41,824 nt of DNA from Cyanophora paradoxa CCMP329 (lineage: Eukaryota; Plantae; Glaucophyta). The DNA lies in NCBI GenBank assembly GCA_004431415.1, contig QPMI01000630.1, positions 1 through 41,824 of the forward strand, written 5' to 3'. The notes beneath the pieces were generated by a model, which was not told the DNA's origin, ran no database searches, and saw only the letters and a program-made list of their open reading frames with translations. Shown in pieces: positions 1 through 30,924 of the stretch. Numbering within the stretch: the stretch's first letter is position 1; each line of letters opens with the position of its first letter. Made by a program: the position numbers and the translations under genes.

Positions 1-247
1 TCTCGATCCCGATCGGGCGCCTCGCGCGACGCGTCGGCGGCAGGCCTCGTCGACGCGTCGCGACCCTTGGCCGCGCGCGTACGCGACGGAGCGGCGCCCC
101 GGCGGCCCCGCAGAGCGCGCATACCGCCTGCAAGAAGTGTCCCCCGCGGCCGCACGGACTCTCTTGCATCGCGCGTACTTTCCCACCTCGCCTCTCGTAC
201 GAACCCTGACCGTCTTTGCAGCGGCGTGGCGCGACAGACGACCCGCC

Positions 248-1700
248 TCCCGTACCCCTGGCTACGGCGGCGGCAGCGAGGGGGGTAGAGGTGAGCGCGG
301 GAGACTCCCCCCCCCCCAAGGGACCTGAGCCGCCCCCCTTCTTCCCGCCCGCAGATCCCGCTCCTTCTGGGGCGGCGGGGCGAGTCTCCACCGGCCCCCG
401 TACCCCTGGCTACGGCGGCGGCGGCGGTGAGGGGGTAGAGGTGCGCGCGGGAGACTCGCCGGCCCCCCCCCAAGGGACCTGAGCCGCCCCCCTTCTTCCC
501 GCCCGCAGATCCCGCTCCTTCTGGGGCGGCGGGGCGAGTCTCCACCGGCCCCCGTACCCCTGGCTACGGCGGCGGCGGCGGCGAGGGGTAGAGGTGCGCG
601 CGGGAGACTCGCCGGCCTCCCCCCAGGGACCTGAGCCGCGCCCCTTCTTCCCCGCCCGCAGATCCCGAGCCTTCTGGGGCGGCGGGGCGAGTCTCCACCT
701 CCCCCGTACCCCTGGTTACGGCGGCGGCGGCGAGGGGGGTAGAGGTGAGCGCGGGAGACTCGCCGGCCTCCCCCGAGGGACCCTGACCCGCGCCCCGTCT
801 TCCCGCCCGCAGATCCCGCCCCCTCTAGGGGCGGCGGGGCGAGTCTCCACCGCCCCCCGTACCCCTGGCCACGGCGGCGGCGGCGAGGGGGGTAGAGGTG
901 CGCGCGGGAGACTCGCCGGCCTCCCCCGAGGGACCCTGACCCGCCCCCGTCTTCCCGCCCGCAGATCCCGCCCCCTCTAGGGGCGGCGGGGCGAGTCTCC
1001 ACCGGCCCCCGTACCCCTGGCTACGGAGGCGGCGGCGGGGGGGGGGGGTAGAGGTGAGCGCGGGCGACTCGCCGCCCCCTCCCCAGGGGACCCTGACTCG
1101 CGTCCTTCTTCCCGCCCGCAGATCCCGCTCCTTCTGGGGCGACGGGGCGAGTTTCCACCGGGCCCCGTACCCCTGGCTACGGCGGCGGCGGCGAAGGGGG
1201 GTAGAGGTGCGCGCGGGAGACTCGCCGGCCTCCCCCCAGGGACCTGAGCCGCGCCCCTTCTTCCCCGCCCGCAGATCCCGCTCCTTCTGGGGCGGCGGGG
1301 CGAGTCTCCACCGGCCCCGTACCCCCTGGCTACGGGCGGCGGCGGCGAGGGGGGTAGAGGTGAGCGTGGGAGACTCGCCGGCCTCCCCCGAGGGACCTGA
1401 GCCGCTGCCCCGTCTTCCCGCCCGCAGATCCCGAGCCTTCTGGGGCGGCGGGGCGAGTCTCCACTGGCCACCGTACCCCTGGCTACGGGCGGCGGCGGCA
1501 AGGGGGGTAGAGGTGAGCGCGGGAGACTCGCCGGCCTCCCCCGAGGGACCTGACCCGCGCCCCTTCTTCCCGCCCGCAGATCCCGAGCCTTCTGGGGCGG
1601 CGGGGCGAGTCTCCACCGACCCCTGTACCCCCTGCCTACGGCGGCGGCGGCGAGGGGGGTAGAGGTGAGCGCGGGAGACTCGCCCCGCCGCCCCCTGGGG
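248..1700. repeat. Tandem repeat, ~150-155 bp unit, 9 full copies plus 1 partial, with internal inverted motif pair
   Basis: GTACCCC unit starts at about 251, 399, 553, 705, 858, 1010, 1166, 1318, 1472 and 1624. Units carry GGAGACTCGCC (or a near variant) and its reverse complement GGCGAGTCTCC. Confidence 0.95.
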
Positions 1701-2724: not shown

Positions 2725-3366
2725 CTATCGACCGACGAGCTGAGCGTCCGGGCGCAGCGCCGATCGGGAGGGCGTCTCGGCGGACCGCGTGCACGGAAAG
2801 GAGAGGGAGGCGGGCGGCGGGGCCCCGAAGGACATCCAGTCGACGCTGGCGAATCGCCGCCGGAACGGTTCCGGCATGAAGCCCAGCGTCCCCTCGGCCT
2901 CGGCGGCGAGCCGCGCGGCGTACCCCGGGTCCTCCCGGGCGAGGCGGGCGTGCTCGGCGGCGGCAAAGTAGGCGCCTCCGACGGGGCACGGCGCGCGGCA
3001 CACGGGGCAGCTCGCCGCCCTCCAGCGGACCATGCAGCCGTAGCACATCACGTGACCGCACGCCTCGGAGACGGGCCGCGTCACCGGCTCGAGGCAGACG
3101 GGGCACTCGTCGGTCCAGCGGAGCGGCGACGGCGGCCCGGCGGCGCGGTTCTGGAAGCAGCGCCAGGCGATGCAGCAGGCGAGGCCAAAGTCGATGTGCC
3201 GCTCCCGCGCCGCCTCGTCCTCCTCGGGGTCGGCCCCGAGCGGCATCTCGATCGTCTCGAAGCGGATCCGGCCCTCGGGCGTCGTGCCCACCGCCAGCGC
3301 GCAGCGCGAGACCCCCCTCTCCCGATCGTACTCGATGAGCCGGTGCGCGGGTACCCCCGCCTGCAT
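2725..3366 (-). CDS. C3HC4 RING finger protein (putative E3 ubiquitin ligase), intronless
   Basis: CPVCLEPVTRPVSEACGHVMCYGCMVRWRAASCPVCR is a canonical C3HC4 RING; 213 aa ATG-started ORF. Confidence 0.85.
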   Translation of the reverse strand: MQAGVPAHRLIEYDRERGVSRCALAVGTTPEGRIRFETIEMPLGADPEEDEAARERHIDFGLACCIAWRCFQNRAAGPPSPLRWTDECPVCLEPVTRPVSEACGHVMCYGCMVRWRAASCPVCRAPCPVGGAYFAAAEHARLAREDPGYAARLAAEAEGTLGFMPEPFRRRFASVDWMSFGAPPPASLSFPCTRSAETPSRSALRPDAQLVGR

Positions 3367-3557: not shown

Positions 3558-6500
3558 ATGCCTCCCGTCGCGTCTCCCTCGTCGTCGCCGCCGTCGAGTC
3601 TCCCGCGCGCGTCGCCCCGAAACGGGAGCGCGCCGGCGGCGTCGCGCCCGGGCCCGGCCCCGCGTCGCGTCTCCACCTCCTCGGCCCGCCCCGTCGCAAT
3701 CGGCGAGGATGGGGCGGGGGCGTGGACGCGGCGGCTCGCGGGGCGGAGCCCATGGAGGTCGACGTCGCGCCGGCCGCCCCGCCGCGCCGCCGCCCGGTCC
3801 GGCTGGAGCCCACGCCCTCGTCAAGCCGGCCGTCCCGGCCTCCCGACCCCTTCAACAGCGCTGCGCCGCCGCCCCCTCCGCGACCTCGTCGACGCGGCGG
3901 CGCGGCGCGCCTTCTGCCAGGCCGCCTCCACCCTCGCCGTCCGCCGCCCCGACGGCTCCCAGACCGCCTGCGTCTACGCCGGATTCCTCGACTTTGACGC
4001 CGCCGCATCGCGCCCTCGAGAAGAAGGGCCTCGCCGCCAGGCCGCCCCGCTGCGCACCCTCGCCGAGCTCTTCGCCGCCGAGCCGCGCCTCCTGGAGCCG
4101 GCCGGACCGCGTACAGGCTCGCCAAGGCGTGCGGGGCGTACCCCCCGCGCCCGGCGAGCGCCGCTCGAGTGCCTCGTCACCTTCAGCGGCCTCAAGGCTT
4201 CCACGTCCTCCTCCGCACCCCGCCCTGCTCGTCCGGGCCCCCGGGGCGCGCGTCAAGGCGACGGCCAGGTGGAGCCGCGGCGGCCGCGGCGGCCGGCCTA
4301 CTCCGTGGACGACCTCCTGGAGACGGCGCTCGTACCCCTGCTCCGCAGGCTGCCGGCCTCTCCGAGAGGACGTGCTCGGCATCGTGGCGGCGATCGACAG
4401 GTCCCGCTCAACCCCAACTGCGGCCTCCGCCTCGACGAGTACCCCCACCCGCTCACGGGCGGTACCCCGTCGCCGTCTCGGCCCCGACTCGACGCCCTGA
4501 TCGAGCCCGACGCGAGGCGGCGGAGCGGTCCTCATCGCCGGCGACGGCCCCGCCCGGAGATCTCGGCCTTTCTCTCCGGCCTCTTCGCCGACCTGGAGCG
4601 GCGCGTGGGACGGAGAGGCCGTGCCGCCCTCCCGCCCTCCCGAGGCCCGAGCGCCCCGCGCGAGGGCGCGGCGCGAGCAGGAAGCGTCGGCGGGACGGGA
4701 GCCCGGCCCGGGGCGGCGCCGGCAGCGCGCCCGAGCCCTGCGCCGGCCCTGGAGCTCGCCCCGCACCATCGCGATCGGCGGGCGCGCCCGCAAGGTCCGA
4801 CTCGTGGGCGCTCGGAGGACGGGCGCTACGTCACGTTTCGCGTCAGCCCGCGGCGGCAGCGCGCCCGTGCCACCTCGGCGTCGAGCACGACTGGCGCGGA
4901 CCCTCTGCTCGGTCTCGCAGCTCCTCCCGGGGCGAGCATGGTGCGTTCCGGTGCGGGGCCAGAACACTCGGACTGCGCCCGGCGCCCCGTCTTTGGCGCC
5001 CGTCTGGACGGGCGCGGGCGACCCGGCCGAGGAGCGGCGACGACGCGGCCCTCGTGGCCTCGCGAGTGCCTCTCGAGCATCGCGGACGGGGCGCGCGGCG
5101 GCGCGCCGCCCGCCGCCGCACCCTCCCGTACCCCTTCTCCGTCGTCCCCCGCACCAACGACCGCGTCTACTCTGTCGACGCGCCCTGCGCCGAGTGCGGC
5201 GGGGCGCGCGGGGCGTGCTCGTCGACGTTCTGGCGCGCGAGGTCAAGGCGTTCCCGTGCGCCGGCTGCAAGCGGCGAGCCCCGAGGGCGCACCCGTCGCC
5301 TCGACCTCCTCCCGAGCTGGGCTCGGAGCTGCGCGCCGCGGAGGACGCCGTGCAGCGCGCCTCGTCGCGCGGGCGCTGGAGGCGAACGGGGCCCCGCATC
5401 GCGCTCTTCGGCCGCGGCCGAAGGGCTGGCTGGAGGCCCTCCGCCCCTCGGCGGGCAGCCGGGGAGCAGCTCGTCGCGATCATCGAGGTGCTGCGCCAGC
5501 GGGTCGTGGCCAAGGACTGTCGGCGAGCCGATCCGCCGCGGGCTCGTGCCGGAGCGGCGCGGAAGGCGCTGGACGCGCTCCGCTCCCGACCTGCGCGAGC
5601 CCCTCGGCGGCCCGCGGCGGGGGCTTCGACTGGCGTGACATCGTCCACGACGCCAACGACCTCGGCGACCCGCGGCGCCGGTGGTGGACAAGGCGGTCGA
5701 GGGGCGCTCCGCGGCCGGCCACGCGGCGAGGCATGCTCTTCCTCCGGGCGCAGACGGGTACGGGCAAGTCGCAGGCGATCGTCCACCTCCTCGCCGAGAT
5801 GCGCAAGTCCCCGCCGCGTACGGCCTGCCCCAGCACTTCAGGATCCTCTACGTCGTCGCGGGCGGATCCACGACGAGCTCCTCCTGGCGGACACGCGCTA
5901 CACGGCGATCTGCGCGGTGCGTGGACCTCGTACAAGGAGATGACGCCGGGGCAGCTGGCGCAGGCGAGCGCGCAGCTCATGTCGACCGTCGAGTCGATCC
6001 AGCGCCTCGAGGGCGCCTTCCAGGTCGTCGTCGTGGACGAGGGGGCCAAGGCGCTGGCCACGCTGGCCCTCTCGACGACGCTGGCCAAGGAGGGGCGCCA
6101 CAGCGCGGCGGTCGCGCGATTCAGAAGCCTGTTCGCCAGGCGCACCGCCTCGTCATCGCCGACGCGACCTCTCCCAGCCCGACGTCGACTTCTACGTCGG
6201 CCTCTTCCTCGGGGCCGCGCGGCGCGGCGGGGCGCGGGGCCCGGAGCCCTTCGTGGTGCAGTACCTGCACCGCTCCGCGAGCACGCGCGGCGCGCTCCTC
6301 CTCCCTGGATGTACGCCCCGCTCCTCGTCGCGGCGCACCTCCTGGCCGGCAAGCGCGTCGTCCTCTCCGCCGACGACCGCCGCGCCCTCTTCGCCACCCT
6401 CGCCTCCTCCACGCCCACCCGCCTCCGCGCGCGGTCGAGGCCGGCCGCCTGAGCTCGCTCTTCATCTACGCCGACGCGCCCAACGCGGAGAAGGAGAAGC

Positions 6501-8942
6501 TCAAGGAGAAGGCGCTCGTCGGGCGCTCGACCTCTTCGCCTACAACTCGGCCGTACCCCAGGCAGCGACTTTAACGAGGGCGCTTCGACGTCTGCATCGT
6601 GGCGATGGCGGGCGACGTACGACGTGAACGGGCGGGCAGGCATGGCGCGCGTGCGCTCTGTCGCGGAGCCGGACGTCTTCGTGTGCGCGGGCGCGAGCCG
6701 CGGAGAGGCGCCCTGGGGCCCTGGGGCGACGGTCGGCGCGTCGAGGCCGTCTACGAGCGGCGCCTCGAGGAGGAGCGCGAGATGCGGGGCGGGTCGAGGG
6801 CGACCGCGCCGCTCCCCGGGCCGACCTCGCCTTCCTCCGCATGCAGGCGGCCCGCCTCGTCGTCCTGAACTGGAGCCGCAGCGCACCGTCCAGGCCCTCG
6901 ACGCCAAGTTCGGGAAGATGGGGTACGCGCGCGGCCTGGAGCTCGTCGAGAAGGCCGAGCCGCTCCCAAGTCCGTCGCCTCGCTCCTGAACGCCTCGCCG
7001 CGCGCGTGCGCTCGGCGGCGATCTACGCCCCGTGGCCGCCGCCGCCACCCTCGGGAGAGGACCCCGACGGCGCCATCGTGGAGAGCATGCTGGCCGGAGG
7101 CGCCGGCGGCGCTGGGTCGGTGGCCCGTGACCGAGGCGGAGAGGCTCGCGTGCCGGAAGCGCTTCGTGGCCGGCGCCCTCCGCATCGACCCCGCCGACGT
7201 CAGCCTCGCGGAGTCGAGGCGCACGCCAAGGAGACGCCGCCTCCTCCGCCCCCTGATCCGCCTTTGGCGCCGCCGCCGGCCCTTCCTCGCCGACCGCGAC
7301 GGCGGGGGCGGTCTACGGAGCACGGGGGGTACGGCTCCTGCGGGGCGCGTGGACAAGCAGCACACGCGGCGGAGCGCCCTCGCCTCCTCGCCCTGGCGGC
7401 GGCCCGGCCCCGCGGGCCCGCGGCCCGGCCGCCCGGCGCCCTCGTCGTCGAGAAGCTCTCGCCCCTCGGGCTCCTCGACTCGTTCGCGCCGGACGCCTGC
7501 CCGCGGCGGACCTCGCTCGCCTCGCGGCGCGGTGGAGCGGGACCGGCTCTTCGAGCACGCGACCCGGCGGACTTTGTGGTCGGGGCGGGCCTGCTCCAGC
7601 AGGCCGACCGGGCCGACGCGCCGCGTGCAGGGCGTACCGCGCGCGCGCCCAGGAGCTCTTCGATCTGGCCAAGGAACCGACGCTGGAGGTGCCGTGGGAA
7701 GCACTTTCTCCGACTCCTGAAGCGGGCGGCCATCTGGGCGGGCGTACCCTCAAGCCGCCGTCTTCGCGGGCCCCCGAAGCGCCGACAGGTCGGCGGGCGG
7801 CGGGTGACCCAGAGGGCGGCGTCGAGGGCGGATTCGTGTGGACTACCTCGCCCTCGCCTTTGTTACCTGCGCCACGCCAAGACCGAGTACGCGTCCCGGC
7901 GGCTCTTCGAGGCGTCGAACCCGGAGCCGAGGCGGCGCGGCGCGCGGAGGAGGAGAGGAGGGGAGGAGAGGGCGCGCTCCGGCGGGACGGCGAGGAGGGG
8001 AGGGGCGGGCGAGGGCGGCCGGCGGGGGGAGGAGACGGACGTGGCGGACGGCCTCGATCGGGCGAGCGAGGGCGGGACGAGACGCGGAGCCGACCGGGAG
8101 GCCATCGAGCGCTCCTCGCGGGGCCGCCCGGGGGAGCGCGCCCCCTCCCGCCCGTCACGTACCCGAGCCGGAGGAGGCGCGGGCGCGCGCCGGTGGACCG
8201 CCACGGGCCCGCCTCTTCTTCTCCGCGATGAACCTGACGGCCGTCGCCATGAGCGCGATCGTCGAGCTGGGCGGCCGCTGCCGCAGCGCAGCCCCTGCGC
8301 GAGCGCGCCGAGCTCCACCCCTCTGTCTGGTACGGCCGGCGCGCGCGCTGGCGCGGAGCCCAACGAGCTGCTCGGCGGCTCCTGGGATGGGGGGGCGAGG
8401 AGCGATCCGCGCGGCGGCGGCGCGCGTGCACGCGGCCCTGCTGGACTCGTGCGACGCGGAGGAGAGGGCGGGCGCCGAGTCCGAGGCGGAGCGCGGGTGA
8501 CGCCGGCGGCGCTCGAGGAGCTCCTCCGCGCCCTCTGCGAGCGGGCCGCCGAGGCGGAGGCGCGCTCCGCGGCGGATCCCGGCGTCGACGAGGAGGACGC
8601 GCGCTGGTTCGTGGGGCGCCTGGCCGAGGCCTGGCGCGCCGGCGCGGGGACGCGCTCCGACCCCGCCAGTTCACCAAGAAGGAGCTCAACGGATCTTCAA
8701 GCCCAAGACCCGACGAGCGGGAGGAGCTCCCCGTGACGCTCCGGGGGCTCCCGAACAAGGTCGCCGTCATCAAGCCCGGCAACAGCAGCGGTCCGGCCTC
8801 GGCCTCGTCGCCGACTGGCTCGAGAGGCGCGGGGCGCCGTCCCTCCGCATCCAGCTCGAGTGGCGCGCCCGCCCCAAGGGAAGGAGCTCACGGGGATCGC
8901 CGTCCCCGCGCCCTCTTTGCTCACTTCGGATTCGACAGCTAG
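3558..8942 (+). pseudogene. AEP primase fused to UL9/replication-origin-binding-protein-type SF2 helicase (multiply frameshifted in this assembly)
   Basis: AEP motif I GFLDFD (3981-3998), motif II FSGLK/GFHV across a frameshift (~4182-4207), motif III region LRLDEYPHPLTG (~4425-4460). CxxC pairs at ~5185-5270. Walker A AQTGTGKS (5748-5771), STVESIQRL, Walker B VVVVDE (6024-6041), VIADAT (~6152-6169), LDLFAYNSAVPQGxDFNE and MARVR (~6642), as in OBP/UL9-like helicases. Coding-like fragments continue to a stop at 8942; the 3' end is uncertain. Confidence 0.8.
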
Positions 8943-9455
8943 GCACCCCCCTCCTGTACGCGAGCACCTCTGAACGCGTGCGGCTCCCTCTTCCCTCGGT
9001 GTTCGGGGGTGGGGTACGGGGGCGGGAGGGAGGGGAGGGAGGGGAGGGGCCCGGGCGCCCCGCCCCGTTCGCCCTCGCAGGCTCGCAGCCGGCCGTTCGC
9101 GCTCCAAAGGTGCGGCGTACCCGCCCTCCCCTCCCCTCCCCCCGCCTCCGCTTACCCCCTCGTGACAGGGCCCGTTCGAACGAGGCCTTCGCATGCGCCC
9201 TCTCATCTGAGCGATTCCTTTTCGGGTATTTTTCTCGCGCCCCGCCGCACTATAAAAAGATCGCGCCGCCCCGAAACCTCACTCTCAAGTTTCGCAGCTT
9301 CGCAACATGAGCTCGGCCCTTTCCGTCGCGTCCTCTCTCGACATGATCGACCCGGCGCTTTTCGGTCGCGACGGCGCGCTCTTCTCCTGCGGCGCACCGG
9401 CCCCGGCGGCCTGGACTCGGCCCGGCTCCTCCGTCGCGTCGATCCTCGCCGCCGC
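8899..9455 (+). repeat. ~555 bp segmental duplication, copy 1 (primase-helicase 3' end, intergenic region, TATA, start of next gene)
   Basis: Near-identical to 9954-10517. Confidence 0.95.
9251..9258 (+). promoter_or_regulatory. TATA box (TATAAAAA), duplicated at 10306-10314
   Basis: About 55 bp upstream of ATG 9307; the second copy is a similar distance upstream of ATG 10364. Confidence 0.6.
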
Positions 9456-9958
9456 GCCCGACGCGGAGAAGGAGAAGCTCATGGAGAAGGAGCTCGTCGG
9501 GCGCTCGACCTCTTCGCCTACAACTCGGCCGTACCCAGGGCGCGACTTTAATGAGGGCGGCTTCGACGTCTGCGTCGTGGCGATGGGCGGGCGGACGTAC
9601 GACGTGAACGCGGAAAAGGAGAAGCCCAAGGAAAAGGAGCTCGTCGGGGCGCTCGACCTCTTCGCCTACAACTCGGCCGTACCCCAGGGCGGCGACTTTA
9701 ACGAGGGCGGCTTCGACGTCTGCGTCGTGGCGATGGGCGGGCGGACGTACGACGTGAACGCGGAAAAGGAGAAGCCCAAGGAGAAGGAGCTCGTCGGGGC
9801 GCTCGACCTCTTCGCCTACAACTCGGACGTACCCCAGGGCGGCGACTTTAACGAGGGCTGCTTCGACTTCTGCATCGTGGCGATGGGCGGGCGGACGTAC
9901 GACGTGAACGCGGCGGGCAGAGCATGGCGCGCGTGCGCCGTTTCGCGGAGCCGGCCGT
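9456..9958 (+). repeat. Three tandem ~150 bp copies of an internal fragment of the helicase gene (source ~6480-6675)
   Basis: Unit encodes AEKEKPKEKELVGALDLFAYNSAVPQGGDFNEGGFDVCVVAMGGRTYDVN (50 aa), matching the helicase segment at 6483-6630. Confidence 0.95.
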
Positions 9959-10517
9959 CCCGCGCGCCCTCTTTGCTCGCTTCGGATTCGACAGCTAGGC
10001 ACCCCCTCCTGTACGCGAGCACCTCTGAACGCGTGCGGCTCCTTCTTCCGTCGGTGTTCGGGGTGGGGGTACGGGGGCGGGAGGGGGGAGGGGGAGGGGA
10101 GGGCCCGGGCGCCCCGCCCCGTTCCGCCCTCGCAGGCTCGCAGCCGGCCGTTCGCGCTCCAAAGGTGCGGCGTACCCCGCCTCCCCTCCCCCTCCCCCCG
10201 CCTCCGCTTACCCCTCGGGACAGGGCCCGTTCGAACGAGGCCTTCGCATGCGCCCTCTCATCTGAGCGATTCCCTTTTCGGGTATTTTTCTCGCGCCCGC
10301 CGCACTATAAAAAAGATCGCGCCGCCCCCGAAACCTCACTCTCAAGTTTCGCAGCTTCGCAACATGAGCTCGGCCCTTTCCGTCGCGTCCTCTCTCGACA
10401 TGATCGACCCGGCGCTTTTCGGTCGCGACGGCGCGCTCTTCTCCTGCGGCGCGCCGGCCCCGGGCGGCCTGGACTCGGCCCGGCTCCCTCCCGTCGCGTC
10501 GATCCTCGCGCCGCCGC
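9954..10517 (+). repeat. ~560 bp segmental duplication, copy 2
   Basis: Near-identical to 8899-9455. Confidence 0.95.
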
Positions 10518-10972
10518 TCGTCGCGACCCCCTGGCTCCTCCCGCCGCCTTTGAAGCCTGCAAGGCGCCCCTCCCGTGGCCCCGCGTGGACGCGGACGCGA
10601 CGGCGCCGGCGCCCGCGGGCCCTCTTCAGGATCCCCTCGCGCCCCTGCCGCCGAGCCCCGCGGCCGGCACCCCGAGCCCCGCCGCGCCCGCAGGGCCCCC
10701 TCTGCGCTTCCCGTCGCCGTGCCGGCCCCGGCGCGGCACGTCGACCTGGGCCCGTGCGCCCCGCTCAGGCGCCGTCGCGTCGTCCGCTGTTCCGTGTGCA
10801 GGCTCACGGTACGCGCTCGCGAGGCCCGGGCGGGCGGCGCGGCGCGGCGGGCGTCGCGCGGCGATCTGACCTTTTTCCTGCGCGCGCAGGGCCACAACAA
10901 GAAGACCCACGACCGGTTTGTCCTGGCATCGTGCCCGTGTGGAAGAAGCGGCGTCAGTGGCAGCGCAAGCGG

Positions 10973-11008
<36 letters not shown>

Positions 11009-11249
11009 CCCGCGAGCTCCGCCGCCCCGCCTCGACGTCGACGGGCGCAGGGTGATGCACTGCTGCGAGTGCGGCATGGAGGTGAGTCCACCGGAGGGCG
11101 CGTCGTGGGGCGACAGGGGAGGTGGGGGGGGAGGGAAAGGGGTACGGGCCCGATCTGACCCTCGTTCTGCGCAGGGCCGCAACTCCAGGACGCACCACGG
11201 CCCGCGGATGCACTGGCGCAAGAAGCGGGAGAGCGACTACGAATACTGA
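10364..11249 (+). CDS. Proline-rich protein with two CxxC-x3-G(H/R)NxxTH zinc-knuckle-like motifs; 2 introns; frameshifted 5' part
   Basis: TATA at 10306, ATG at 10364. GT-AG introns 10809-10889 and 11082-11174, both with a CTGAC branch site, give CSVCRLT|GHNKKTH and CCECGME|GRNSRTH. Stop at 11249. Confidence 0.6.
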
Positions 11250-11322
11250 GCGCGCCGGCGTTTGCATAAAGGGGACCCGCGCCGCCTCTCCCGCAGCGGC
11301 GGCGCCCAGGGCCTGAGCGGGG

Positions 11323-13540: not shown

Positions 13541-14389
13541 TTACGACTCTGAGCCGGCGGCGGCCTCTGTCTCGACCTGAATCGAGCACGCGCATGCGCA
13601 CGTGCCTTCGATCTTGCGGACATCGGGCCCGTTCCCGCAGGAGGGGGCCGAAAATTCCGCGCCTAGCGCTGTCATCACCTTTAATTTCTTTGCGAGGCCC
13701 CCGTTTCGTGCACGATCCTCGAGGAGCAGTTTAAACGCCTTGGCGACGGTTTCGTTCGGAAACCCGTGTGCCACCGCCCGAATCTTGATCGGTCCGCGGG
13801 CCATCTCGAAGAGGCCGGAGCCGCGCAGCTCGGCAAACTTGCGCTTGAGGTTGGACGAGCAGCCGACAAAGGCGGGGAGCTGCCTGGCGCCGCCCATGAC
13901 GAACACGACGGGCTGCTTGGGTCCGAATTTGTCCGAGAGCTCCACCGGGGCGGGCTTTGCGTTTGGGTCCCGAACGTGAACGGCCCTGTTCGGCGCCGGC
14001 GCCGAGGACGCTGCGTCGCGACCCGCGGCCGCGTCGACGTCGCCGGCCGCCTCGCCCTCGCGATCCTGCCCCTCTGCCCGCGGGCGCGCGCCTGCGCCCG
14101 GAATCGCGACGCAGGTCGACGTCGGGGCCGGGGATCCGGAGGCGGCTGCGTTCGAATCCGGCGCCTCCGAGCGCGAATCGCGCTCGCGATCGCTGTCGGC
14201 CGCAGCGCCCTGCACCGAAATCGATAGCGATGGGTTCGGCGCGGGAGATTTCGGAGGTGACGACGGCGCTTCCCGACATCGATCGGGATCCTGATCGATA
14301 TCGTGATCGTGGTCGGCGGCGGGGCCCGATCGCTTCGAATTCGGGCTCGACGTCGACATCCCCTCTAGCGCCTCGAGCTTCGGGGGCAT
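13541..14389 (-). CDS. GIY-YIG (SLX1-like) domain protein, divergent and probably catalytically inactive; long low-complexity N-terminus
   Basis: VVFVMGG..PAFVGCSSNLKRKFAELRG...RGPIKIRAVAHGFPNETVAKAFK parallels the SLX1-type pattern VYLL..YVG.T.D..RRL.QHNG...RPW.....GFP....AL.FE. Intronless, ATG at 14389. Confidence 0.6.
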   Translation of the reverse strand: MPPKLEALEGMSTSSPNSKRSGPAADHDHDIDQDPDRCREAPSSPPKSPAPNPSLSISVQGAAADSDRERDSRSEAPDSNAAASGSPAPTSTCVAIPGAGARPRAEGQDREGEAAGDVDAAAGRDAASSAPAPNRAVHVRDPNAKPAPVELSDKFGPKQPVVFVMGGARQLPAFVGCSSNLKRKFAELRGSGLFEMARGPIKIRAVAHGFPNETVAKAFKLLLEDRARNGGLAKKLKVMTALGAEFSAPSCGNGPDVRKIEGTCACACSIQVETEAAAGSES

Positions 14390-14769: not shown

Positions 14770-16400
14770 CCCTCCGGAGACTCGCCGCCACCCCCCTCTG
14801 GAGGGAGCGGCGCTCGCGCGTCGTCCGCAAGGCGAACGAGTGAAAGGGAGGGAGGGTGCCGCGCCGCAAGAGGCAGGGGGTAGAAGAGTTTCCGGGGCGC
14901 CATGCGCCCCCGCGCCGATGGACCAGGCCTAGGGGCGCCGAAGCTCGTTCTGGGCGTCGGGCGAGTCTCCAGGGGGAGGGGGGGGGCCGCCGGGGGTACG
15001 GCTCGGAGCTTTCGCGCCGCTCTCTCTCGGGGGCGGCGGCGAGTTTCGAAGGGGGGGGGGGGAGCTTGAGGGGGGTAGCTGGGGTACGAGCGAGATTCTA
15101 GCGCCGCCCTCTGTCGGGGCGGCGGCGAGTCTCCCGGGGGGTGAAACGAGGGGGTACGTGGGGTACGGTCGAGATTCGAGAGTCGTTTGCTTCGAGGGGT
15201 GGCGGCGAGTCTCCAGGGGGGGAGGGGGAGGTAGGTGGGGTACGGTCAGAGATTCAGCGCCACCCTCTTTCGGGGCGGCGGCGAGTCTCCAGGGGGGAGG
15301 GGAGATAGCTCGGGGTACGGTCAGAGATTCAGCGCCACCCTCTTTCGGGGCGGCGGCGAGTCTCCAGGGGGGTGGGACGAGGGGCACGTGGGGGTACGGG
15401 AGAAATTATAGAGCTGTTCGCTTCGAGGGGTGGAGGCGAGTCTCCAGGGGGGAGGGGGAGGTAGGTGGGGGTACGGTCAGAGATTTAGGCGGCGCGGCTC
15501 TGGATCTCTCTCGGGGGCGGCGGCGAGTCTCCGGGGGGTGGACGAAGGTACGTGGGGGTATGGCCGAGATTATGGAGCAGTTCGCTTTGAGGGGTGGCGG
15601 TGAGTCTCCAGAAGGTAGGAGGAGGCCACCGAAAACTCGCCGCGCCCCCCTCAGGGACCCGTTGCACGGGCGTGAGAAGCCAAGGGTGAGCGAGCTCGAG
15701 GAGAAGGCCGGTCCCGTACCCCGTCTCCCAACCTGGACCCCGCTGGAAACTCGCCACGCCCCCCTCAGGGGCCGGCTGCACGAGCGTGAGAAGCCGAGGG
15801 GGAGCGAGGGAAAGGCCGGTCCCGTACCGGGACCCCATCTCCCAAACCTGCCCCCCGCCGCTGGAAACGCGCCGCGCGCCCCTCAGGGGCCGGCTGCACG
15901 AGCGTGAGAAACCGAGGGGGAGCGAGGGAAAGGTCGGTCCCGTACCCCGTCTCCCAAACCTGCCTCTGCCGCTGGAAACTCGCCACGCGCCCCTCGGGGG
16001 CCGGCTGCACGGGCATGAGAAACTTTAAGCCGAGGGCGAGCGAGGGAAGGGCGGACCCGTACCCCGTCTACAAACCCGCCCCTGCCGCTGGAAACTCGCC
16101 GCGCGCCCCTCAGGGGCCCGCTGCACGGGCGCGAGAATTCGGAGCCGAGGGCGAGCGAGGAGAAGACCACCACCCCCTCCCCCCTGGAGACTCGCCGGCT
16201 CCCCCCTCTGAGAGAGCGGTGCTCGAGATTTGATCGTACCCTCACCAACCCCCGCCCCCCGCCCCCTGGGAGACTCGCCGGCTCCCCCTCGGAGAGAGCG
16301 GCACTCGCGCGTCGTCCGTACCCCCGCCGAATGGAAGATGAAACCCCGCCTCCCGCCCCCCTGGAGACTCGCCGCCGACCCCCTCTGAGAGAGCGGCGCT
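14770..16400. repeat. Polarity-switching array of GGA(A/G)ACTCGCC-containing degenerate repeats
   Basis: One forward copy at ~14776. Then ~9 reverse copies at ~76-87 bp spacing (14960-15610), each followed by GGGGTA(C/T)G except the last. Then ~8 forward copies (15631-16373), the first five at ~115 bp spacing. Confidence 0.85.
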
Positions 16401-16410
16401 CGGGATACGC

Positions 16411-16710: not shown

Positions 16711-17630
16711 ATGAGCAGTTGCGTCCACCCTTACGTCGCGTCCGGGGCCGAGGGCGACGTGTGCACGTCCTGCGGCATGTGCCTCGACGCGTACGGGTCG
16801 TACGCGACGCCCCTGGGCCTCGTCTGCGACGAGCAGGGCGGCGCCGGCGTCGCGTCCTCGCACGATCGATATCTGCAACTGGGGCTGGATCTGCTACGCG
16901 ATATTCCAGAGCCGGCGCCGCGCACGTGCACGTGGCAGCCTTCCAAGTCTAGTTCTGCGCGCGCAATCCCGAGCTCGAGCGCGCACGGTACCCACGCGAA
17001 TATGAATCGCACGGAGCTGGATCAGACTGTGAGGGAGACGGCAGAGCGCATGCTCCTCCGGAGATTGTCTGGCGCGAGGCCCTGGAAACGCTCCGCGAGA
17101 AGCGCGCCGTGATCTCGGGAGGCGGTACACATCCCTCGCCCTCGCGGCCCTCTATCTGGCCGTCCAACAGCTCGATATCCCTCGTGGGATACACGATTTC
17201 GAGCACGCGGCCCCTCCCGAGGCGCGCCACGAGGTCCGAAAGTACGTTCGCGTCCTCTTGGAGGCGACGCCGGCGCCGGCGCCGGCCGCGGGGCCCCCCG
17301 CGGGCGATCGGCGCGAGGGCCGTCGCCTTCACACGTACGACTTGGGCGTGTCCCTCGTGGAAAGCGTCGGAAAGAATATTGGAATCGACGGTTCGATCAT
17401 CTCGGCCGCCCAGAAGCGCTACAGAGAGTACCTGGAGGCGGGACGAGCTCGTTCCAGGACCCGAAGATCCTAGCGATAGGGGCGCTCGCGCTCGCGGCCA
17501 AGCTCTCCGGACGCGCTTCCTGGTCCACGCGAAAAATCGCGATTCGAGCCGGGCCTCTCCGACCGCCGCGCGCGCTGCGGTCAGGGAGATGAGGGCACGG
17601 CTCGGGATAGACCTAGATCTAGACCCGTAA
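16711..17630 (+). pseudogene. Transcription initiation factor TFIIB-like protein (Zn ribbon plus two cyclin repeats), intronless, about 4 frameshifts
   Basis: N-terminal CVH...GDVCTSCGMCLD zinc ribbon. Repeat 1 across frames: TVRETAERM.PEIVWREALETLRE..GRRYTSLALAALYLAVQQLDIPRGIHDF (cf. GR...AIAAACLYIACRQE.VPRT..EI). Repeat 2: LVESVGKNIGIDGSIISAAQKRY...SR.PKILAIGALALAAKLSG...STRKIAIRAG.SPTAARAAVREM. Confidence 0.85.
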
Positions 17631-18234: not shown

Positions 18235-20688
18235 ATGGCATCTGCAAACTCGCCCCCCAGCCGCGATCGCGATCGCGATCGCGATGAAGAGAAAGATCTA
18301 GATCCGGGTTCCGGATCCGGAGCGAGCGCGAGGGGGCGGTTGCTGCCCTCGCCGAGCTCGGGGGGCGGGTCCAGGCCCCCTTTCGACTCCCGCCCCGCCA
18401 AAGTCCAACTTCCAGCGTACCTGAGCGTGGGGAGGGACCCGGCCCTCGCCTTTCGCCCCTCGTGCGCGCGATGCCAGGTCGAGCGGGTCCCACCCCCATC
18501 GTACATGCTTCCCTGCGCCGTCTCGCGCATCTTGGACCGCACCGGGGCCTCGAGCTTGAACGGATCGCTCGAGGCGCACCCCCGCCCCACGTTCGAGGAC
18601 CTCCGAAGCTGCTCAGGAAAAGCCTGCATCTGCGTCACCTGCGCGATCAATCTGGTGGCCGCGGCCGCGGCCGCCCCCGCCCCCGCCCCCGTGTTCAAGT
18701 GCCCCGCCTGCGGGGAGGACCACCGCGCGCCGGACGAGCTCCTGAGCTCGTCCCGTATCGACGCCTACCTCGCCTACGCGTCCTTTATCGAGGACGGAAA
18801 CAACCCGCAGGCCTGGATCGCCTCCGAAATTATCGGGAGGCAGGCGCTGGCCTCGGTGTTTGAGCACGTGGCCCACCTGGCGCTGGAGGCGGCGCGGGCA
18901 AAGGAGACCCCGCGATCCCGATCGCGAGCGCTGCCCCGCCCCCCCGGGCCCGGCCGGCCCCCCGGCCTCGACGTTGACGTTGGCGCCGGCGCCGGCGTCG
19001 ACGTCCGCGGCAGCGCGAGCCGGACCCGGCACGTCGCGCCCGGACACCGACCCCGCAGCCGGAGAGGGTCCGAGCGGCCCGTCGGAAGGGAACCCGGCGC
19101 CGGCGCCGCCCGGGCCCGGTACCGCGGCCGGTGCGGGCTCGAGTTCGAAAAAGGGCAAGGAGCCGGCCCTGCACGCGCAGGCGCCCGCGGCCGCCCCGGC
19201 CTCCCCGCCGGCAGAGGGCGATCGCGAGAGCGAGGCCAAGGGCGAGGCCGGCGCCGGCGCCGGGGCGAGCGCCAGGGCGGGCCCGGGGCTCCGAAAGCGC
19301 CCCGATCGCGAGGGGCAGGTCCCCTCGGGCGCGACGCAGGCGGGCACCCCCCAGGAGGGGGGCCCCTCCAGGGCGAAGCGCCAGCGGAGCAAGTGGGGCT
19401 CGGGGAGGACGGAGCGCAAGCCCTACGAGAGCGACAAGCTGGTCAAGGTCCTCTACACGGCCTACACGTACCCCGCCGAGCTCGATCGCGACGCGGATGG
19501 GCCAGAGGACGGGGCAGGGGCGCCGGCAGAGGGTTCGAGCTCGCGCTCGGGCTCGGGCTCGGAGCTCGGCGATCCCGCCCCCGGTCCGTCCGCGGCCGGC
19601 CGTGGCCCGGCGGGCGCCGGGCCCTCTGCGGGCCCCTCTGATTCCGGCAAACGCAAGCCTCCGAATTCTCCGGCTGCCGCGGCCGCCGCCGCCGGCTCCG
19701 ATTCCGGATCCGGGAAATCTCAGAGTCCGACGCGGGCTCCCGCGCCGGGAGTCCGGATCCGCGCGATGCGGAGCTGGCCGAGGCGTGGAGCAAGGCCTAC
19801 GCGGCGGCCGTCCGGTTGGACTCGGAGGCGTCGTCCGAGCGCGACGGGGGGGAGGCCGCGGGGGGGGACGAGCTCGAGAGCGCGGGGAGCGCCTCGCAGG
19901 AGGGGCAGGAGGAGGATCCGGAGAGCCTCCCGCCTACGAAAAGGGGCTGGCCGTGGGCGTGGACGTCGCCCTCGTCGGCCGCCGCCTCGACGCGAATCCG
20001 CAGGCCCGGGCGGCTCTGCTCGAACGCGTTCAGAACCTGGGGCGGGAGAGAATTCGGGCGCTCGTCCTCGTCGCCGCCGCGGTCCTCGGGGCGTACGAAA
20101 AGTACAGGTGGGCGCGCGGGATTTCTGTCCATTCTTTCTGCCCGCGCAGGCGGCCGATGGGGCGGGTGCGGGGCGCAGGACTCGCACGGGAACAATCGAA
20201 AATTGTGGGGTACTGGAGAAAGGAGCACATCGAGACAAAGTACAACTCGATTCTCGGTTCGTTTAAATTTCGCGAGCTCGGGGCGCCGGCGGCGCTCCTG
20301 TTGCGCGTGGCCGTGGGGCCGGACTCCCCCCCGCTGACCCTGCAAGCGTGCACCCGTTTGCGCAGAGGCGGTGGGATTCCGGCTCGAGCTCCCGGCACAG
20401 AGAACCGAGATTTACACCGATCTCAAGAATCTGGCAGAGACGATGCGCAGATTCCCCGGCCTCTGCCGGGTCTCTGGGTCCGGCATCAGTCCGATCGACT
20501 TTCTGTCGACCGTACCCCTGCTCAAAACCGCCGACGCCGAGGGCGCGAAGCGCGTCGCTGCGCGGGTGAGCGACGAGGTCCGCCGCGCCAAGGGGTACGC
20601 GTTCGACGAGTCGGTGCTCGAGCTGGGGGCCCTGCAGCCGGCGGCGAGGAGGGGAGGGCGACGCGTCATCCTCGGAGGCGGGGGGTAG
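18235..20688 (+). pseudogene. Large frameshifted ORF with N-terminal RING-like Zn finger, low-complexity linker and unknown helical C-terminal domain
   Basis: CARC...LPC...ICVTC...FKCPAC pattern at ~18460-18715. Coding continues through frames 18860.., 19816.., 19131.. and 20371..20688 (e.g. TEIYTDLKNLAETMRRFPGLCRV). Confidence 0.5.
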
Positions 20689-21246
20689 GGGGATTCTGGG
20701 AGCTCCCCGGCCTGCGCACGCGGGCGCCGTAATTTCGAATTCGGAGCTCCCCTCTCGGACGTCGACCCGCCCGAGCTCCTGCGCCCAAGCCTCGGACCGC
20801 TGCACGTGGTGACTTTATTTGTAAAATCTAGACCGCTGCACGTGACAGCGGGCGCTGCACCCCAGCTCTTCATCTTGATCGCGATTCGATAACTGCTCTG
20901 ATACCATCTTGATACTCGCCGAGAGTCGAGCTCGGGTAAAAGTCGAGCCAGAGAAGAGTAATATTTAATATTAAATTTCGCATATACACTGAATGCTCCG
21001 CGGACAAATTTCATGGCCGCGCTTAAAGGGATGCCTAGGTCAGAGACTCGGAGATCGTCCAATCGTCCGGTACCCGGTGACAAGCACGATGGAAACTTCG
21101 ACGGGCCCGCGGCCGCCAATTCATTTGCATTTGCCGATTCATAGCGCGAATTTCGCCGCGAAATGCTTGACCGCGAGCCCGCGCGATCCCGAGGTCGACG
21201 GCGATCCTCGAACTCGTGCGCGTGATCACGACGGGTTCGGGGGCGG

Positions 21247-21939: not shown

Positions 21940-22692
21940 CACGAGTCTCCCAGAGGGAGAAGAAGGGGGTACAGGCCAAGAGGGAGGGGGAAGTATCAGG
22001 GGGGGGAATTCGTGGCGGTGGGGAGGGGGCGAACGGTTGCAAGGGGGTACAGGCGGTCTCGCATGGGGTTCTGGATCTTCTAACGGGGGCGAGGCGAGTT
22101 TCCAAAAGGCGGGCAGGGCGTGTGTGAAGGGGTACAGCGCGCGACTCGAAGCGTCTCCCCCTAGAGGGGGCGTGGCGAGTTTCCAGAGGGGGGGGGGGGT
22201 AGGGGGTACAAGGGGGAATTCGAGCGCGACCACAATGCAGACTAGGATCGCTCCCTCCATCCCTTGGAACAGGAACCCTTCCGGGGGCGAACGGTTGCAA
22301 GGGGGGTACAGGCGGTCTCGCATGGGGTTCTGGATCTTCTAACGGGGGCGAGGCGAGTTTCCAAAAGGCGGGGCAGGGGCGTGTGAAGGGGTACAGCGCG
22401 CGACTCGAAGCGTCTCCCCCTAGAGGGGGGCGTGGCGAGTTTCCAGAGGGGGGGTAGGGGGTACAAGGGGAATTCGAAGGCCTCGCCGCACCCCTAGCTA
22501 TAGGAGGGCCGGGGCGAGTTTCCAGAAGGCTCGGAGTGGGTGTGCGGGCGCCCTCGAAATTAAAGGTACATCCTCTGGGGTGGACGTGGTGAGTTTCCAG
22601 GGGGCGAGGCGTGAGGAAGTAAGGGGTGGAGATTTCGAAGGTTAGCACCCTCTTTATCCAGCTATAGCTGGGGGAGCACGGCGAGTTTCCAG
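21940..22692 (-). repeat. Reverse-oriented GGAAACTCGCC motif block including a ~200 bp direct duplication
   Basis: About 8 GGCGAGTTTCC-like copies; 22026-22222 is repeated at 22283-22476. Confidence 0.85.
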
Positions 22693-22780
22693 AGAACGCG
22701 CGCAGGCGCGGGAGATCTTTGCGGGCCGTGACACCTAGAACTCACCGTCTCGCTCATACTATGATATCCCGCGTCTCGGC

Positions 22781-23385
22781 CCCCAGCTGGAAACTCGCCC
22801 CGCTCCCCCTCAGAGCCCTCCGCCCCTTGCTGGAAACTCGCCCCGCTCCCCTCAGAGCCCCCGCCCCCCAGCTGGAAACTCGCCCCGCTCCCCCTCAGAG
22901 CCCTCCCGCCCCCCAGCTGGAAACTCGCCCCGCTCCCCCTCAGAGCCCTCCCGCCCCCCAGCTGGAAACTCGCCCCGCTCCCCCTCAGAGCCCTCCCGCC
23001 CCCCAACTGGAAACTCGCCCCGCCCCCCCTTAGAGCCCTCCCGCCGCAGCTGGAAACTCGCCCCGCTCCCCCTCAGAGCCCTCCCGCCCCCCAGCTGGAA
23101 ACTCGCCCCGCCCCCCCTCAGAGCCCCCCCGCCGCAGCTGGAAACTCGCCCCGCCCCCCTCAGAGCCCCCCGCCGCAGCTGGAAACTCGCCCCGCCCCCC
23201 CTCAGAGCCCTCCGCCCCCCAGCTGGAAACTCGCCCCGCCCCCCCTCAGAGCCCTCCCGCCCCCCAGCTGGAAACTCGCCCCGCTCCCCCTCAGAGCCCC
23301 CCCGCCGCAGCTGGAAACTCGCCCCGCTCCCCTCAGAGCCCTCCCGCCCCCAGCTGGAAACTCGCCCCGCTCCCCTCAGAGCCCG
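22781..23385 (+). repeat. Tandem minisatellite, ~42-46 bp unit x14 (CAGCTGGAAACTCGCCCCGCTCCCCCTCAGAGCCCTCCCGCCCC)
   Basis: 14 forward GGAAACTCGCC copies counted; units differ mainly in C-run length. Confidence 0.95.
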
Positions 23386-23917
23386 AGGTGCCGGCGGGGC
23401 CGTGACGAGAAACTAGAAGAGAGGGGCGGGGAGGGGGGGGGCGACCTCGCCGGATTGCTCATACCCCGCCCCGCGTCCTGGCCCGCCTCTACCCCCCCCC
23501 TCCCCCTTCCCCCCCTCCCTCCCCCCCTACCCCCCGCTCCCCTGAAACTCCCCCTGCCCCCCCCCGGCGCTCGCGCTAGCCCGCGCGCAGCAAGCGTTCT
23601 TCGAGGCTCTTCAGCGCTTGTGCATTTGGTCAGCGCGCGAGCGGCGCGCGGGGGGGTACGTTGCCTCTGGCTTCGATCCTTGCGTACCCCCCGAGTCCAT
23701 CGCCGCCGGCGCGCTTGGCGGAGCTCGCGATCGCGGGGCGAGGCGCGGCCCGCGTTCGATATTCAGATGGCCACCGCGCCGCCCACTCCCCACGCTGCGG
23801 CGCCGGGCCCAGCGCGACTCGAAAGGATCTGCAGAGGGGTATGAGCACGCCGAGGGGCCCAGGGGGGCCGAGAGAGACCGCGTACCCCCGCCGCGCAGGA
23901 GACTGCAACTGTCCTTC

Positions 23918-24986
23918 TTACATGTCGCCCCGGAGCCGGCGGGTAAACTGAATGTCCTGCCCGGGGATTTGAGCGGCCCGTGGATTTGAGCGGCCCGTGG
24001 GGGTGGCGGCCCGGGGCGCGGGGCGATGGGCGCGGGGCGCGGGGCCGGGCCCACCTTGGGCTGGATCGTGATCCGCTTGGCGTGGATGGCGGCGAGGTTC
24101 GCGTCATCGAGACGGTTCACGAGAAACTGCGCCCGCAGTCAGGTCAGGCGGGCGCCCGGGGAGCGAAGGGGCGGGGAAGGAGCGGGCGCGCACGGCCTCG
24201 GCGGCCTCGCGGAGGCACTCGATGGCCTCGCGGCGCCAGCGCAGCTCGATATTACCCTCGCCTTCGGCCGCCTTCTTCTCCTTCATGACGTCCTGCCCGA
24301 TCTCCCTGACCTGCGGCCCGTGACGCGGGGGGCCGGGCGACCGGAGCGGGCCGGCGCACGAGGCGGGCAAAGCCGGCGTAGCTGATGAGCGCGTTCGTGG
24401 TCTGCACGGTGGCGGTGAGCCGTCTCGGCCGCTCGTACGGCGGGGGCGCGCGCGGAGCCGACGTGCCTTCTGGTACTTGCGGATCTACGGGAGGAGGGAA
24501 CTGTCCGTCGGGCACGAGCGAGGGGATCGAGAGAGGCGAGGCGCACCTCGCGAAGTGCCACGGTGCCTTTCAAGACGCCCCGCCAGGTCGCCGGACCGGC
24601 GCACGCGTCAGGAATCAGCGGCGGGGGCGGGGCGGCGGGCCCGGGGGGCGCGTGGGGCGGCAGGGAAACGACCGGGGCGGTAGCGGTGAGGCTTCTTGAC
24701 CTGGTGACGATGACCAAGGTGAGCAGAGGCCGGCGCGTGTGCGCGGCCCACGGCTAGCAGTGGCCCCGGGATCCCACGCACCCCGCCGGCCGCGGGCGCG
24801 CTCTTGCGGGCGGCCTTGCTCGAGAGATTCTTCTTGGCGGGCGCGTCCGCGAAGCGCTTGCGAGGAGCCTTCTCTCCCGTGCCCTTCTGACCCTGCGAGC
24901 ACGACGACGTCGTACGCATCGGCGGCGCCGGCGCGCGGCGGGACGGCGGCCGGGAGAGAGCTCACGGTGTGCTTCACCCTGGCCAT
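23918..24986 (-). CDS. Divergent histone H3 variant (CenH3 candidate), 9 exons, ~155 aa
   Basis: Exons 24966-24986, 24782-24892, 24673-24700, 24547-24566, 24467-24484, 24360-24401, 24194-24310, 24055-24126 and 23918-23956 splice to [155 protein letters not shown]. Confidence 0.92.
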
Positions 24987-25218
24987 CGAGACGCGCTAGA
25001 GTGTGGCTGGAGAGCGTGCGACGCGCGCCCCATCCTCGACGCCGGTGGACCCTTTTCTGCGCGACCACCGCGCGCTCGAGTGACAGCGATCGAAGCTGCG
25101 GGTCGCTGGATGCGCGGGAGATGGCGCGGCCGCGGAGCTGGGCATGTGCATACGAGCAGGAAGAGATATCGATACCCGCGGAGTCGAACCCGCGTGCCTG
25201 AAATGCTTGGCTCGTGCG

Positions 25219-25264: not shown

Positions 25265-25507
25265 CTAGGACCCCCAGGGCCGTTGATAGCCGCGGGCACG
25301 CGGCCCGAATCCGATTTCGCGGTCGCCGCCCCGGCAGGCATCGATTCCCATACAAGGGCACCGGGGTACGGGCGGGACCGAAACTTCGATCCGCTGGGCA
25401 CCCACCTCCAAATCGGCACCCTCGCCACCGATTTACTGCTAAATATCACGCTTAGTGCGGATCCACGGATCCTCGTTTATCAAGCAAAACGGATTTCAAA
25501 AAGCGTA

Positions 25508-30708: not shown

Positions 30709-30924
30709 CTATTGGTTGCAGCTATACAGATCGCAGCTTCGAGAAATTCAGTGTGCACGTGCAACGTGCTGTACAGATTTAGATCTAGACCGAGACAAGG
30801 ACCGGACCATTTCATGTCAGTGCACATATGCATGCATATGTACAGCGCAGTGTACAGAAAAAATGAAATACACAACCGGTACCATTGGAAGCCGTTGAGA
30901 GCCGCTGAGCATTAGCTGGGTCGA

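What the first reader, a model, noticed from the sequence alone, without database searches (positions are those of the whole stretch)
3558..8942. Single ~1,800-codon gene fusing an AEP primase to a UL9/origin-binding SF2 helicase
AEP motifs (DFD; SGxKGFH; LRL..HPLTG), CxxC pairs and then OBP-type SF2 motifs (AQTGTGKS, TVES, DE, ADAT, AYNS.VPQG.DF, MARVR) lie collinearly after one ATG. AEPs of viruses and mobile elements are more usually coupled to D5-type SF3 helicases. This fusion would make a one-protein origin-recognition, unwinding and priming machine.
Basis: partly seen in the sequence, partly recalled or inferred. Interest (0 to 1): 0.78.

Follow-up and report, generated by a model that had tools for sequence, protein, structure and literature searches.

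The report
Virus-type primase-helicase in algal genome
Behind many assembly errors lies one long gene joining a predicted DNA primase to a herpesvirus-UL9-like helicase, a pairing already known from giant viruses, here in a likely multi-copy, likely virus-derived stretch of a single-celled alga's DNA that the protein would help to copy.

Summary
The fusion is real but not new. As assembled, the window has no 1,800-codon ORF: the frame from ATG 3558 stops at 6452. A sister gene model (P0003, labelled Cyanophora paradoxa) matches 1,542 of 1,548 codons across 174 breaks with no in-frame stop. Short-read contigs restore the missing bases and bridge primase to helicase, giving about 1,870 codons. 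Two divergent paralogues (36-37% identity) are single chains with the same layout. The helicase is UL9-like. The primase rests on conserved motifs; no fold was obtained. AEP plus UL9-like SF2 fusions are published for mimivirus R8, ASFV pF1055L, an oyster herpesvirus, mriyaviruses and SmDNAV. The setting is more interesting. The gene lies in a block of at least 25 kb read 2-5 times deeper than flanking host DNA, is covered by RNA contigs, and is surrounded by unrelated tandem arrays sharing one 11-bp box (53 copies, none beyond 23.4 kb). Best reading: replication initiator of an integrated virus-like element. No capsid, integrase or polymerase gene was found, and no relative outside this alga.

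The parts
3558..8942 (+). Primase-helicase gene, about 1,870 codons once assembly deletions are allowed for
3873..4610 (+). Predicted AEP domain: motif I DxD near 3981-4000, motif II FSGxKGFH near 4182-4205, motif III D..NPNxGxR.D..H near 4393-4466
   Evidence: positions; conserved in 3 of 3 paralogues; ordered-motif score; weak LigD Prim-Pol hit on a paralogue
4868..5270 (+). Cys/His-rich region (C..RP, PCxxCG, second Cys pair), likely zinc-binding
   Evidence: zinc binding inferred
5730..6690 (+). UL9-like SF2 helicase: GKS, ES, DE, ADADL, AYN, QxxARVR
6700..8942 (+). C-terminal region of about 750 aa with an acidic tract near 7950-8170; alignable with the paralogues, no outside match; candidate DNA-binding part
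   Evidence: role inferred by analogy only
2725..3366 (-). RING-finger gene, divergent from the primase-helicase
   Evidence: Pfam zf-C3HC4
241..1684 (.). 153-bp tandem array (9.5 copies) with two GGARACTCGCC boxes per unit on opposite strands
9307..9996 (+). Mini-gene derived from the helicase: three 150-bp copies of the motif V stretch, then motif VI joined to the gene's last codons
   Evidence: joint 6677 to 8907 in DNA run X1 and RNA-type runs X15, X17
8899..10525 (+). 577-bp direct repeat (8899-9465 and 9954-10525, 95% alike) carrying the gene's end, the next intergenic stretch and the mini-gene's start
14776..16406 (.). 75/231-bp and 118-bp arrays holding 14 copies of the 11-bp box
22025..23384 (.). 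Duplicated units and a 45-bp array (13.9 copies) holding 20 copies of the box
23600..25000 (-). Histone H3-like gene in pieces (likely introns), inside the deep-coverage block
   Evidence: Pfam Histone E=1.3e-4, below cut-off; exons by eye; depth
25503..25618 (.). Right edge of the deep-coverage block; a very high-depth repeat fragment separates it from low-depth host DNA

Best explanation
The gene encodes one protein of about 1,870 residues with a predicted primase at the front and a UL9-like helicase in the middle, likely the replication initiator of a virus-derived element present in a few near-identical copies in this alga's DNA. Shown: single chain, helicase family, conserved catalytic-type motifs, RNA cover, raised read depth, clustered 11-bp boxes. 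Inferred (about 0.8): the AEP is an active primase and the SF2 motor unwinds DNA with ATP. Inferred (about 0.35): the C-terminal region binds the GGARACTCGCC boxes as UL9 binds the inverted boxes of oriS, so the arrays are origins. Inferred: a host polymerase extends the primers, since no polymerase gene was found in the 25 kb seen.
For: Single chain; two paralogues of 2000 and 1775 aa with the same layout. AEP and SF2 regions are the best kept, 21% and 25% invariant against 7-17% elsewhere. Helicase: a profile of 17 CyRepA1/N15-RepA/T5-like proteins scores 27 bits on the X-bridged read, best of 200 shuffles -3.4. The top 4 of 7 PDB hits are replication origin-binding protein, E 9e-4 to 5e-3. 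Primase: ordered PriS motif blocks beat 300 of 300 shuffles for P0003 and P0007 and 298 of 300 for P0006. Known carriers of this architecture are viruses. Depth in run X1 is 175-307 on listed contigs from 3.4 to 25.5 kb against 62-64 beyond 25.6 kb; in X7 39-124 against 29-33. Three near-identical gene models lie on three contigs. The box occurs 53 times, all at 379-23366; 0.19 expected. Giant-virus insertions are reported in this species (PMC12344493).
Against: No capsid, packaging ATPase, integrase or polymerase gene was found in Pfam scans of 240 frames or PHROGs/NCBIfam scans of 16 and 11 sequences. No relative was found outside this organism, so viral ancestry cannot be placed on a tree. 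AEP evidence is motif-level: the whole PriS profile does not score, profile-profile probability is 4.8% on motif II only, the best motif I block in P0003 fell on another DxxD stretch and motif III was misplaced in P0007, the atlas score of 0.79 is only a lead, and both folds failed (pLDDT about 40). The block holds intron-type genes (H3-like), and the gene is covered by RNA contigs, whereas viral insertions in this species are described as mostly methylated and silent. The tool states that contig depth is no copy number. The left end of the block lies outside the window.
Confidence: 0.6

Rival explanations
1. A domesticated host gene: an old viral primase-helicase kept as a small algal gene family for DNA repair or replication restart, this copy lying in an ordinary segmental or subtelomere-type duplication, with the arrays unrelated to it.
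For: Three lineages only 36-37% alike in one genome; RNA cover; codon bias like the host VPS13 gene was enough to trace the frame; intron-type neighbours; no hallmark virion gene.
Against: No orthologue from any other organism, though EukProt sequences were within the searched set. The gene itself is unspliced over 2.8 kb in RNA contigs while the host neighbour is spliced in 5 pieces. The 11-bp box is confined to the deep block. No telomere-type repeat run in the window.
Confidence: 0.22
2. A free low-copy episome (persistent virus or plasmid) of the cultured alga, joined to host DNA in this window only by a mis-assembly through the high-depth repeat at 25.5 kb.
For: No listed short-read contig bridges 25503-25590; an X7 contig of 1,334 letters lays only 833 of them, ending at 25503. 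The depth ratio differs between X1 and X7. An episomal mirusvirus is known in another protist (PMC12606086, abstract).
Against: The repeat itself explains the contig break. Three assembly contigs carry the gene with shared flanks. GC bias can explain the run difference. Fourteen DNA-type runs hold the same share of words.
Confidence: 0.13
3. Two separate genes (primase and helicase), or a decayed pseudogene whose breaks are real.
For: The window as given is broken at 174 places; the full list of corrections was not displayed (12 of 235 rows), so a stop hidden in a break is not formally excluded.
Against: Contig lengths keep the frame across the junction; the independent contig model P0003 and both paralogues run through; short reads supply the missing bases in 4 of 4 runs.
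Confidence: 0.05

Closest known systems
AEP + UL9-like SF2 primase-helicases: mimivirus R8, ASFV pF1055L, Ostreid herpesvirus 1 protein, Yaraviridae SF2_hel (10.1101/2024.02.29.582850, passages and section 6 part 2 read)
   Same: N-terminal AEP with catalytic motifs, C-terminal UL9-related SF2 helicase in one chain
   Different: Longer (about 1,870 aa), with a Cys-rich middle and about 750 aa after the helicase; found in an algal assembly in three divergent lineages. No direct sequence hit to these viral proteins was obtained.
SmDNAV primase-helicase, 'Ariadnavirales' (10.64898/2026.08.29.747986, passages read)
   Same: AEP at 270-515 and SF2 at 788-1409, a spacing like this protein's (AEP about 110-365, SF2 from about 720); a virus lacking DNA polymerase, with relatives found integrated in or co-sequenced with protists
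   Different: No capsid, VLTF, PCNA or RuvC gene identified here; relationship not tested by alignment.
[quoted passage not shown]
   Same: Helicase motifs align in order (best PDB match, E 9e-4); oriS has two inverted boxes, like each 153-bp unit here
   Different: UL9 has no active AEP; no match to its C-terminal DNA-binding domain; the box sequences differ and there is no AT-rich spacer here.
CyRepA1 plasmid initiators, N15/PY54-type RepA and T5-like origin-binding proteins
   Same: Same SF2 subgroup (NF042913 E 3.5e-7 on P0006; profile); primase and helicase in one initiator
   Different: Scores far below the family cut-off (29.5 against 200 bits); N15 and PY54 use a DnaG primase (PMC4889955, passages).
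Giant endogenous viral elements of C. paradoxa (PMC12344493, passages read)
   Same: Virus-derived gene clusters in the same species
   Different: Those are described as methylated, mostly silent and detected by database hits to viruses; this gene has RNA cover and no such hit. Whether this block is among them is not known; the one supplementary file held as text did not name these contigs.

Membership tests
UL9-like SF2 helicase | Walker A, ES, DE, DA, motif V and QxxxRxR in UL9-type order and spacing | tested here: met
UL9-like SF2 helicase | Closer to UL9/CyRepA1 than to other SF2 families | tested here: met
   Top 4 of 7 PDB hits are origin-binding protein; only NCBIfam hit is CyRepA1; scores are low
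Herpesvirus UL9 proper | C-terminal origin-binding (SAP) and dimerisation domains | tested here: inconclusive
   No alignment beyond the helicase with a three-sequence profile; too shallow to exclude
AEP superfamily | Motif I DxD, motif II SGxxGxH, motif III D | tested here: met
   Conserved in 3 of 3 paralogues; ordered-block scores. Motif II strong, motifs I and III weaker by score
AEP superfamily | RRM-like palm fold | tested here: inconclusive
   Single-sequence models pLDDT 41 and 40; fold search of the first gave nothing
AEP superfamily | Primer synthesis activity | not testable with these tools
   needs an assay
R8/pF1055L-type primase-helicase | AEP N-terminal to UL9-like SF2 in one chain | tested here: met
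R8/pF1055L-type primase-helicase | Common descent with the viral proteins (tree) | not tested
   No such viral sequence was retrieved by the searches
Endogenous DNA virus (Nucleocytoviricota, mriyavirus, mirusvirus or polinton-like) | Capsid, packaging or other hallmark genes | tested here: inconclusive
   None in the 25 kb seen; frames are broken and the left part of the block is outside the window
Endogenous DNA virus or mobile element | Defined ends, integrase, target-site duplication | not testable with these tools
   No genome held; only a right-hand depth edge near 25.5 kb

The most novel reading that the evidence does not exclude
A family of self-replicating, virus-like elements in a glaucophyte, built around its own primase-UL9 initiator and multiple arrays of an 11-bp origin box, expressed and recently amplified, carrying a histone H3 variant and ubiquitin-ligase genes, and split into at least three deep lineages with no detected relatives elsewhere: a herpes-style origin and initiator pair in an alga.
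Probability: 0.22. Interest if true: 0.72.

Novelty: new member of a known kind. Interest (0 to 1): 0.4.

Why it matters
The fusion itself adds a very divergent member to a known but little-studied class of viral primase-helicases; the passages I read infer their primase activity from motifs and models. If the arrays are its binding sites, this locus offers a ready initiator and origin pair in a culturable, harmless alga. That would test whether AEP-bearing UL9 relatives recognise origins, and point to an undescribed virus or mobile element of glaucophytes.

Tried and rejected
Pfam on the gene's window frames and on P0003: no hit. Searches for outside relatives were all blank: word-based protein searches (candidates cut to about 8,000 in the last two), phmmer over 1.84 billion proteins with the partly misframed P0002 (P0004 is an unrelated S-layer-domain protein), viral and metagenome contigs, phages and plasmids. 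These are weak negatives: one search also missed the two paralogues. The whole PriS profile did not score. A scan for PF23162 seeds in 151 cyanobacterial genomes gave 1 weak hit, not used. The paired-box pattern gave 45 viral and 55 metagenome loci; none of the 100 had more than 7 boxes or a tblastn hit to the three proteins, so they are treated as chance. By-eye labels for neighbours (TFIIB-like 16.7-17.6 kb, Skp1/BTB-like 21.4-21.7 kb, GIY-YIG-like 13.7-14.0 kb) are recalled resemblances and were not supported by Pfam or PDB searches. A telomere position was considered: no repeat run found. The 2,182-aa length of P0003 is rejected as a gene-caller fusion with the downstream duplicates. Iyer et al. 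2005 could not be read; AEP motif numbering is partly recalled and partly from the PriS alignment.
Full report
What the window is. GC is about 77% over the gene. Pfam scans of 240 stop-free frames found VPS13, a MYND finger, a RING finger and a weak histone hit, so this is eukaryotic nuclear DNA. A database gene model that begins with the window's own ORF (P0001) and two sister models are labelled Cyanophora paradoxa. No whole genome was held.

Is there one gene? Not as assembled: the frame from ATG 3558 stops at 6452 and the motifs are spread over three frames. Short-read contigs from four runs show that the window lacks about 4 bases in 100 here: 105-110 gaps against 5-6 substitutions over 3.8-6.5 kb, 56 gaps over 6.6-7.9 kb and 36 over 8.0-8.95 kb; contigs on 25.6-31 kb show none. 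Only 12 of 235 indel rows were displayed, so I could not polish the gene. P0003, from another contig, matches the window at 1,542 of 1,548 codons across 174 breaks, with no stop in the matched frame. Its five skips of 54-115 bases are gene-caller workarounds: the RNA-type contigs run through them at full length. Contig lengths keep the frame in 3 of 5 testable pieces, two of which span the primase-helicase junction; the two failures share a start beside a break. Read through with X, the protein is 1,874 residues. Two paralogues in the same organism, P0006 (2000 aa) and P0007 (1775 aa), are 36-37% identical, single-chain and collinear to the C-terminal LFA motif.

The helicase. A profile of 17 CyRepA1, N15-RepA-like and T5-like proteins scores 27.2 bits on the X-bridged read, best of 200 shuffles -3.4, and aligns motifs II, III, V and VI in order on P0003. 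It scores 33.8 and 22.2 bits on the paralogues; 0 of 3 reversed sequences scored. A profile of the three paralogues finds replication origin-binding protein as the top 4 of 7 PDB hits, E 9e-4 to 5e-3. NCBIfam gives CyRepA1 only, far below its cut-off.

The primase. GxxDxD, FSGxKGFH and D..NPNxGxRxD..H are kept in 3 of 3 paralogues, and this region is 21% invariant against 7-17% outside the two enzyme domains. Ordered motif blocks from 28 archaeal PriS proteins beat 300 of 300 shuffles for P0003 and P0007 and 298 of 300 for P0006. P0007 has a weak LigD Prim-Pol hit, E 0.0097. Against: the whole PriS profile does not score, profile-profile alignment covers motif II only at 4.8%, the atlas gave viral AEP clusters at only 0.79, and both folds failed. 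I put AEP identity at about 0.9 and activity at about 0.8.

Is it new? No. The mriyavirus preprint (10.1101/2024.02.29.582850; passages and section 6 part 2) states that an intact AEP precedes the UL9-related SF2 helicase in some Yaraviridae, mimivirus R8, ASFV pF1055L and Ostreid herpesvirus 1. The SmDNAV preprint (10.64898/2026.08.29.747986; passages) describes the same layout. Kazlauskas 2018 (PMC5862659; passages) notes prokaryotic AEPs fused to UL9-like helicases. I found no description of the Cyanophora proteins: none of the 12 listed of 279 papers mentions Cyanophora, the listings showed none, and passages of the genome paper PMC6704402 hold no 'virus' or 'viral'. Supplements I could not see may list this block.

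The setting. In run X1, listed contigs have depth 175-236 on the gene and 231-307 from 12.1 to 25.5 kb, but 62-64 beyond 25.6 kb; in X7 the figures are 39-59, 77-124 and 29-33. The tool warns that depth is no copy number, but three near-identical gene models on three contigs agree with a few copies, and the species is reported as likely haploid. The edge lies at 25503-25618, where a very high-depth repeat fragment sits and no listed contig bridges. The 11-mer GGARACTCGCC occurs 53 times at 379-23366 and never beyond, against 0.19 expected. The copies are not independent, since most lie in tandem arrays; the telling point is that arrays of 153, 75, 118 and 45 bp with otherwise different units keep this box. 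Each 153-bp unit has two boxes on opposite strands, as oriS has two directional boxes (PMC13483431; passages), though sequence and spacer differ. Run X15 behaves as RNA: it is spliced in 5 pieces on the host gene and has depth 0 at 13.0-13.7 kb. It covers 3808-6542 in one unspliced contig; a contig does not prove one transcript. Neighbours: a RING gene, an H3-like gene, and several ORFs without database support. No capsid, integrase or polymerase gene was found. Giant-virus insertions are reported in this species (PMC12344493; passages). RING proteins and histones are among mirusvirus core functions (PMC12768974; passages), which is only a lead.

How it most likely works. One protein would bind the element's repeated boxes (inferred by analogy, about 0.35), open the DNA with its SF2 motor and lay primers with its AEP for a host polymerase (inferred). 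Overall reading, initiator of an integrated virus-like element: 0.6. Domesticated gene in a duplication: 0.22. Episome with a false junction: 0.13. Split or dead gene: 0.05.

Verdict. This is a new, very divergent member of a known kind; interest 0.4, carried mostly by the surrounding element.

Noticed in passing
window 9307-9996 and 8899-10525: A mini-gene made of three tandem copies of the helicase motif V stretch plus motif VI and the C-terminal tail, behind a duplicated intergenic stretch; its deletion joint appears in DNA and RNA-type contigs. It could be a defective by-product or a regulator of the full protein.
   Followed up: partly
window 241-23384: Unrelated tandem arrays share the box GGARACTCGCC, usually followed by a C-run and AG; 53 copies, none in the low-depth host DNA.
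   Followed up: partly
window 23600-25000 (minus): A divergent histone H3-like gene with apparent introns lies inside the deep-coverage block; whether it is a centromeric or element-borne variant was not tested.
   Followed up: partly
window 25504-25618: Fragment of a very high-depth repeat (about 4,100 in X1) that also lies in a 1,509-letter contig of RNA-type run X19; it marks the edge between the block and host DNA.
   Followed up: no
window 16712-17630 (+), 21361-21690 (+), 13718-13990 (-): ORFs that by eye recall TFIIB, Skp1/BTB and GIY-YIG proteins (recalled labels); Pfam and PDB searches gave no support.
   Followed up: partly
window 10364-11250 (+): Small intron-type gene starting with the duplicated mini-gene leader and ending in two Cys/His knuckle-like motifs.
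   Followed up: no
window 18235-20690 (+): Long ORF pieces with Cys pairs at the start (RING-like by eye) and no database hit.
   Followed up: partly
window 26000-30709 (+) and 31552-41824 (-): Host-type genes: a spliced MYND-finger gene and the 3' part of VPS13.
   Followed up: no
L136:337-3114: The T5-like Proteus phage origin-binding protein shows a DxD and a downstream His motif before its helicase, fitting an AEP-UL9 fusion in phages too.
   Followed up: partly
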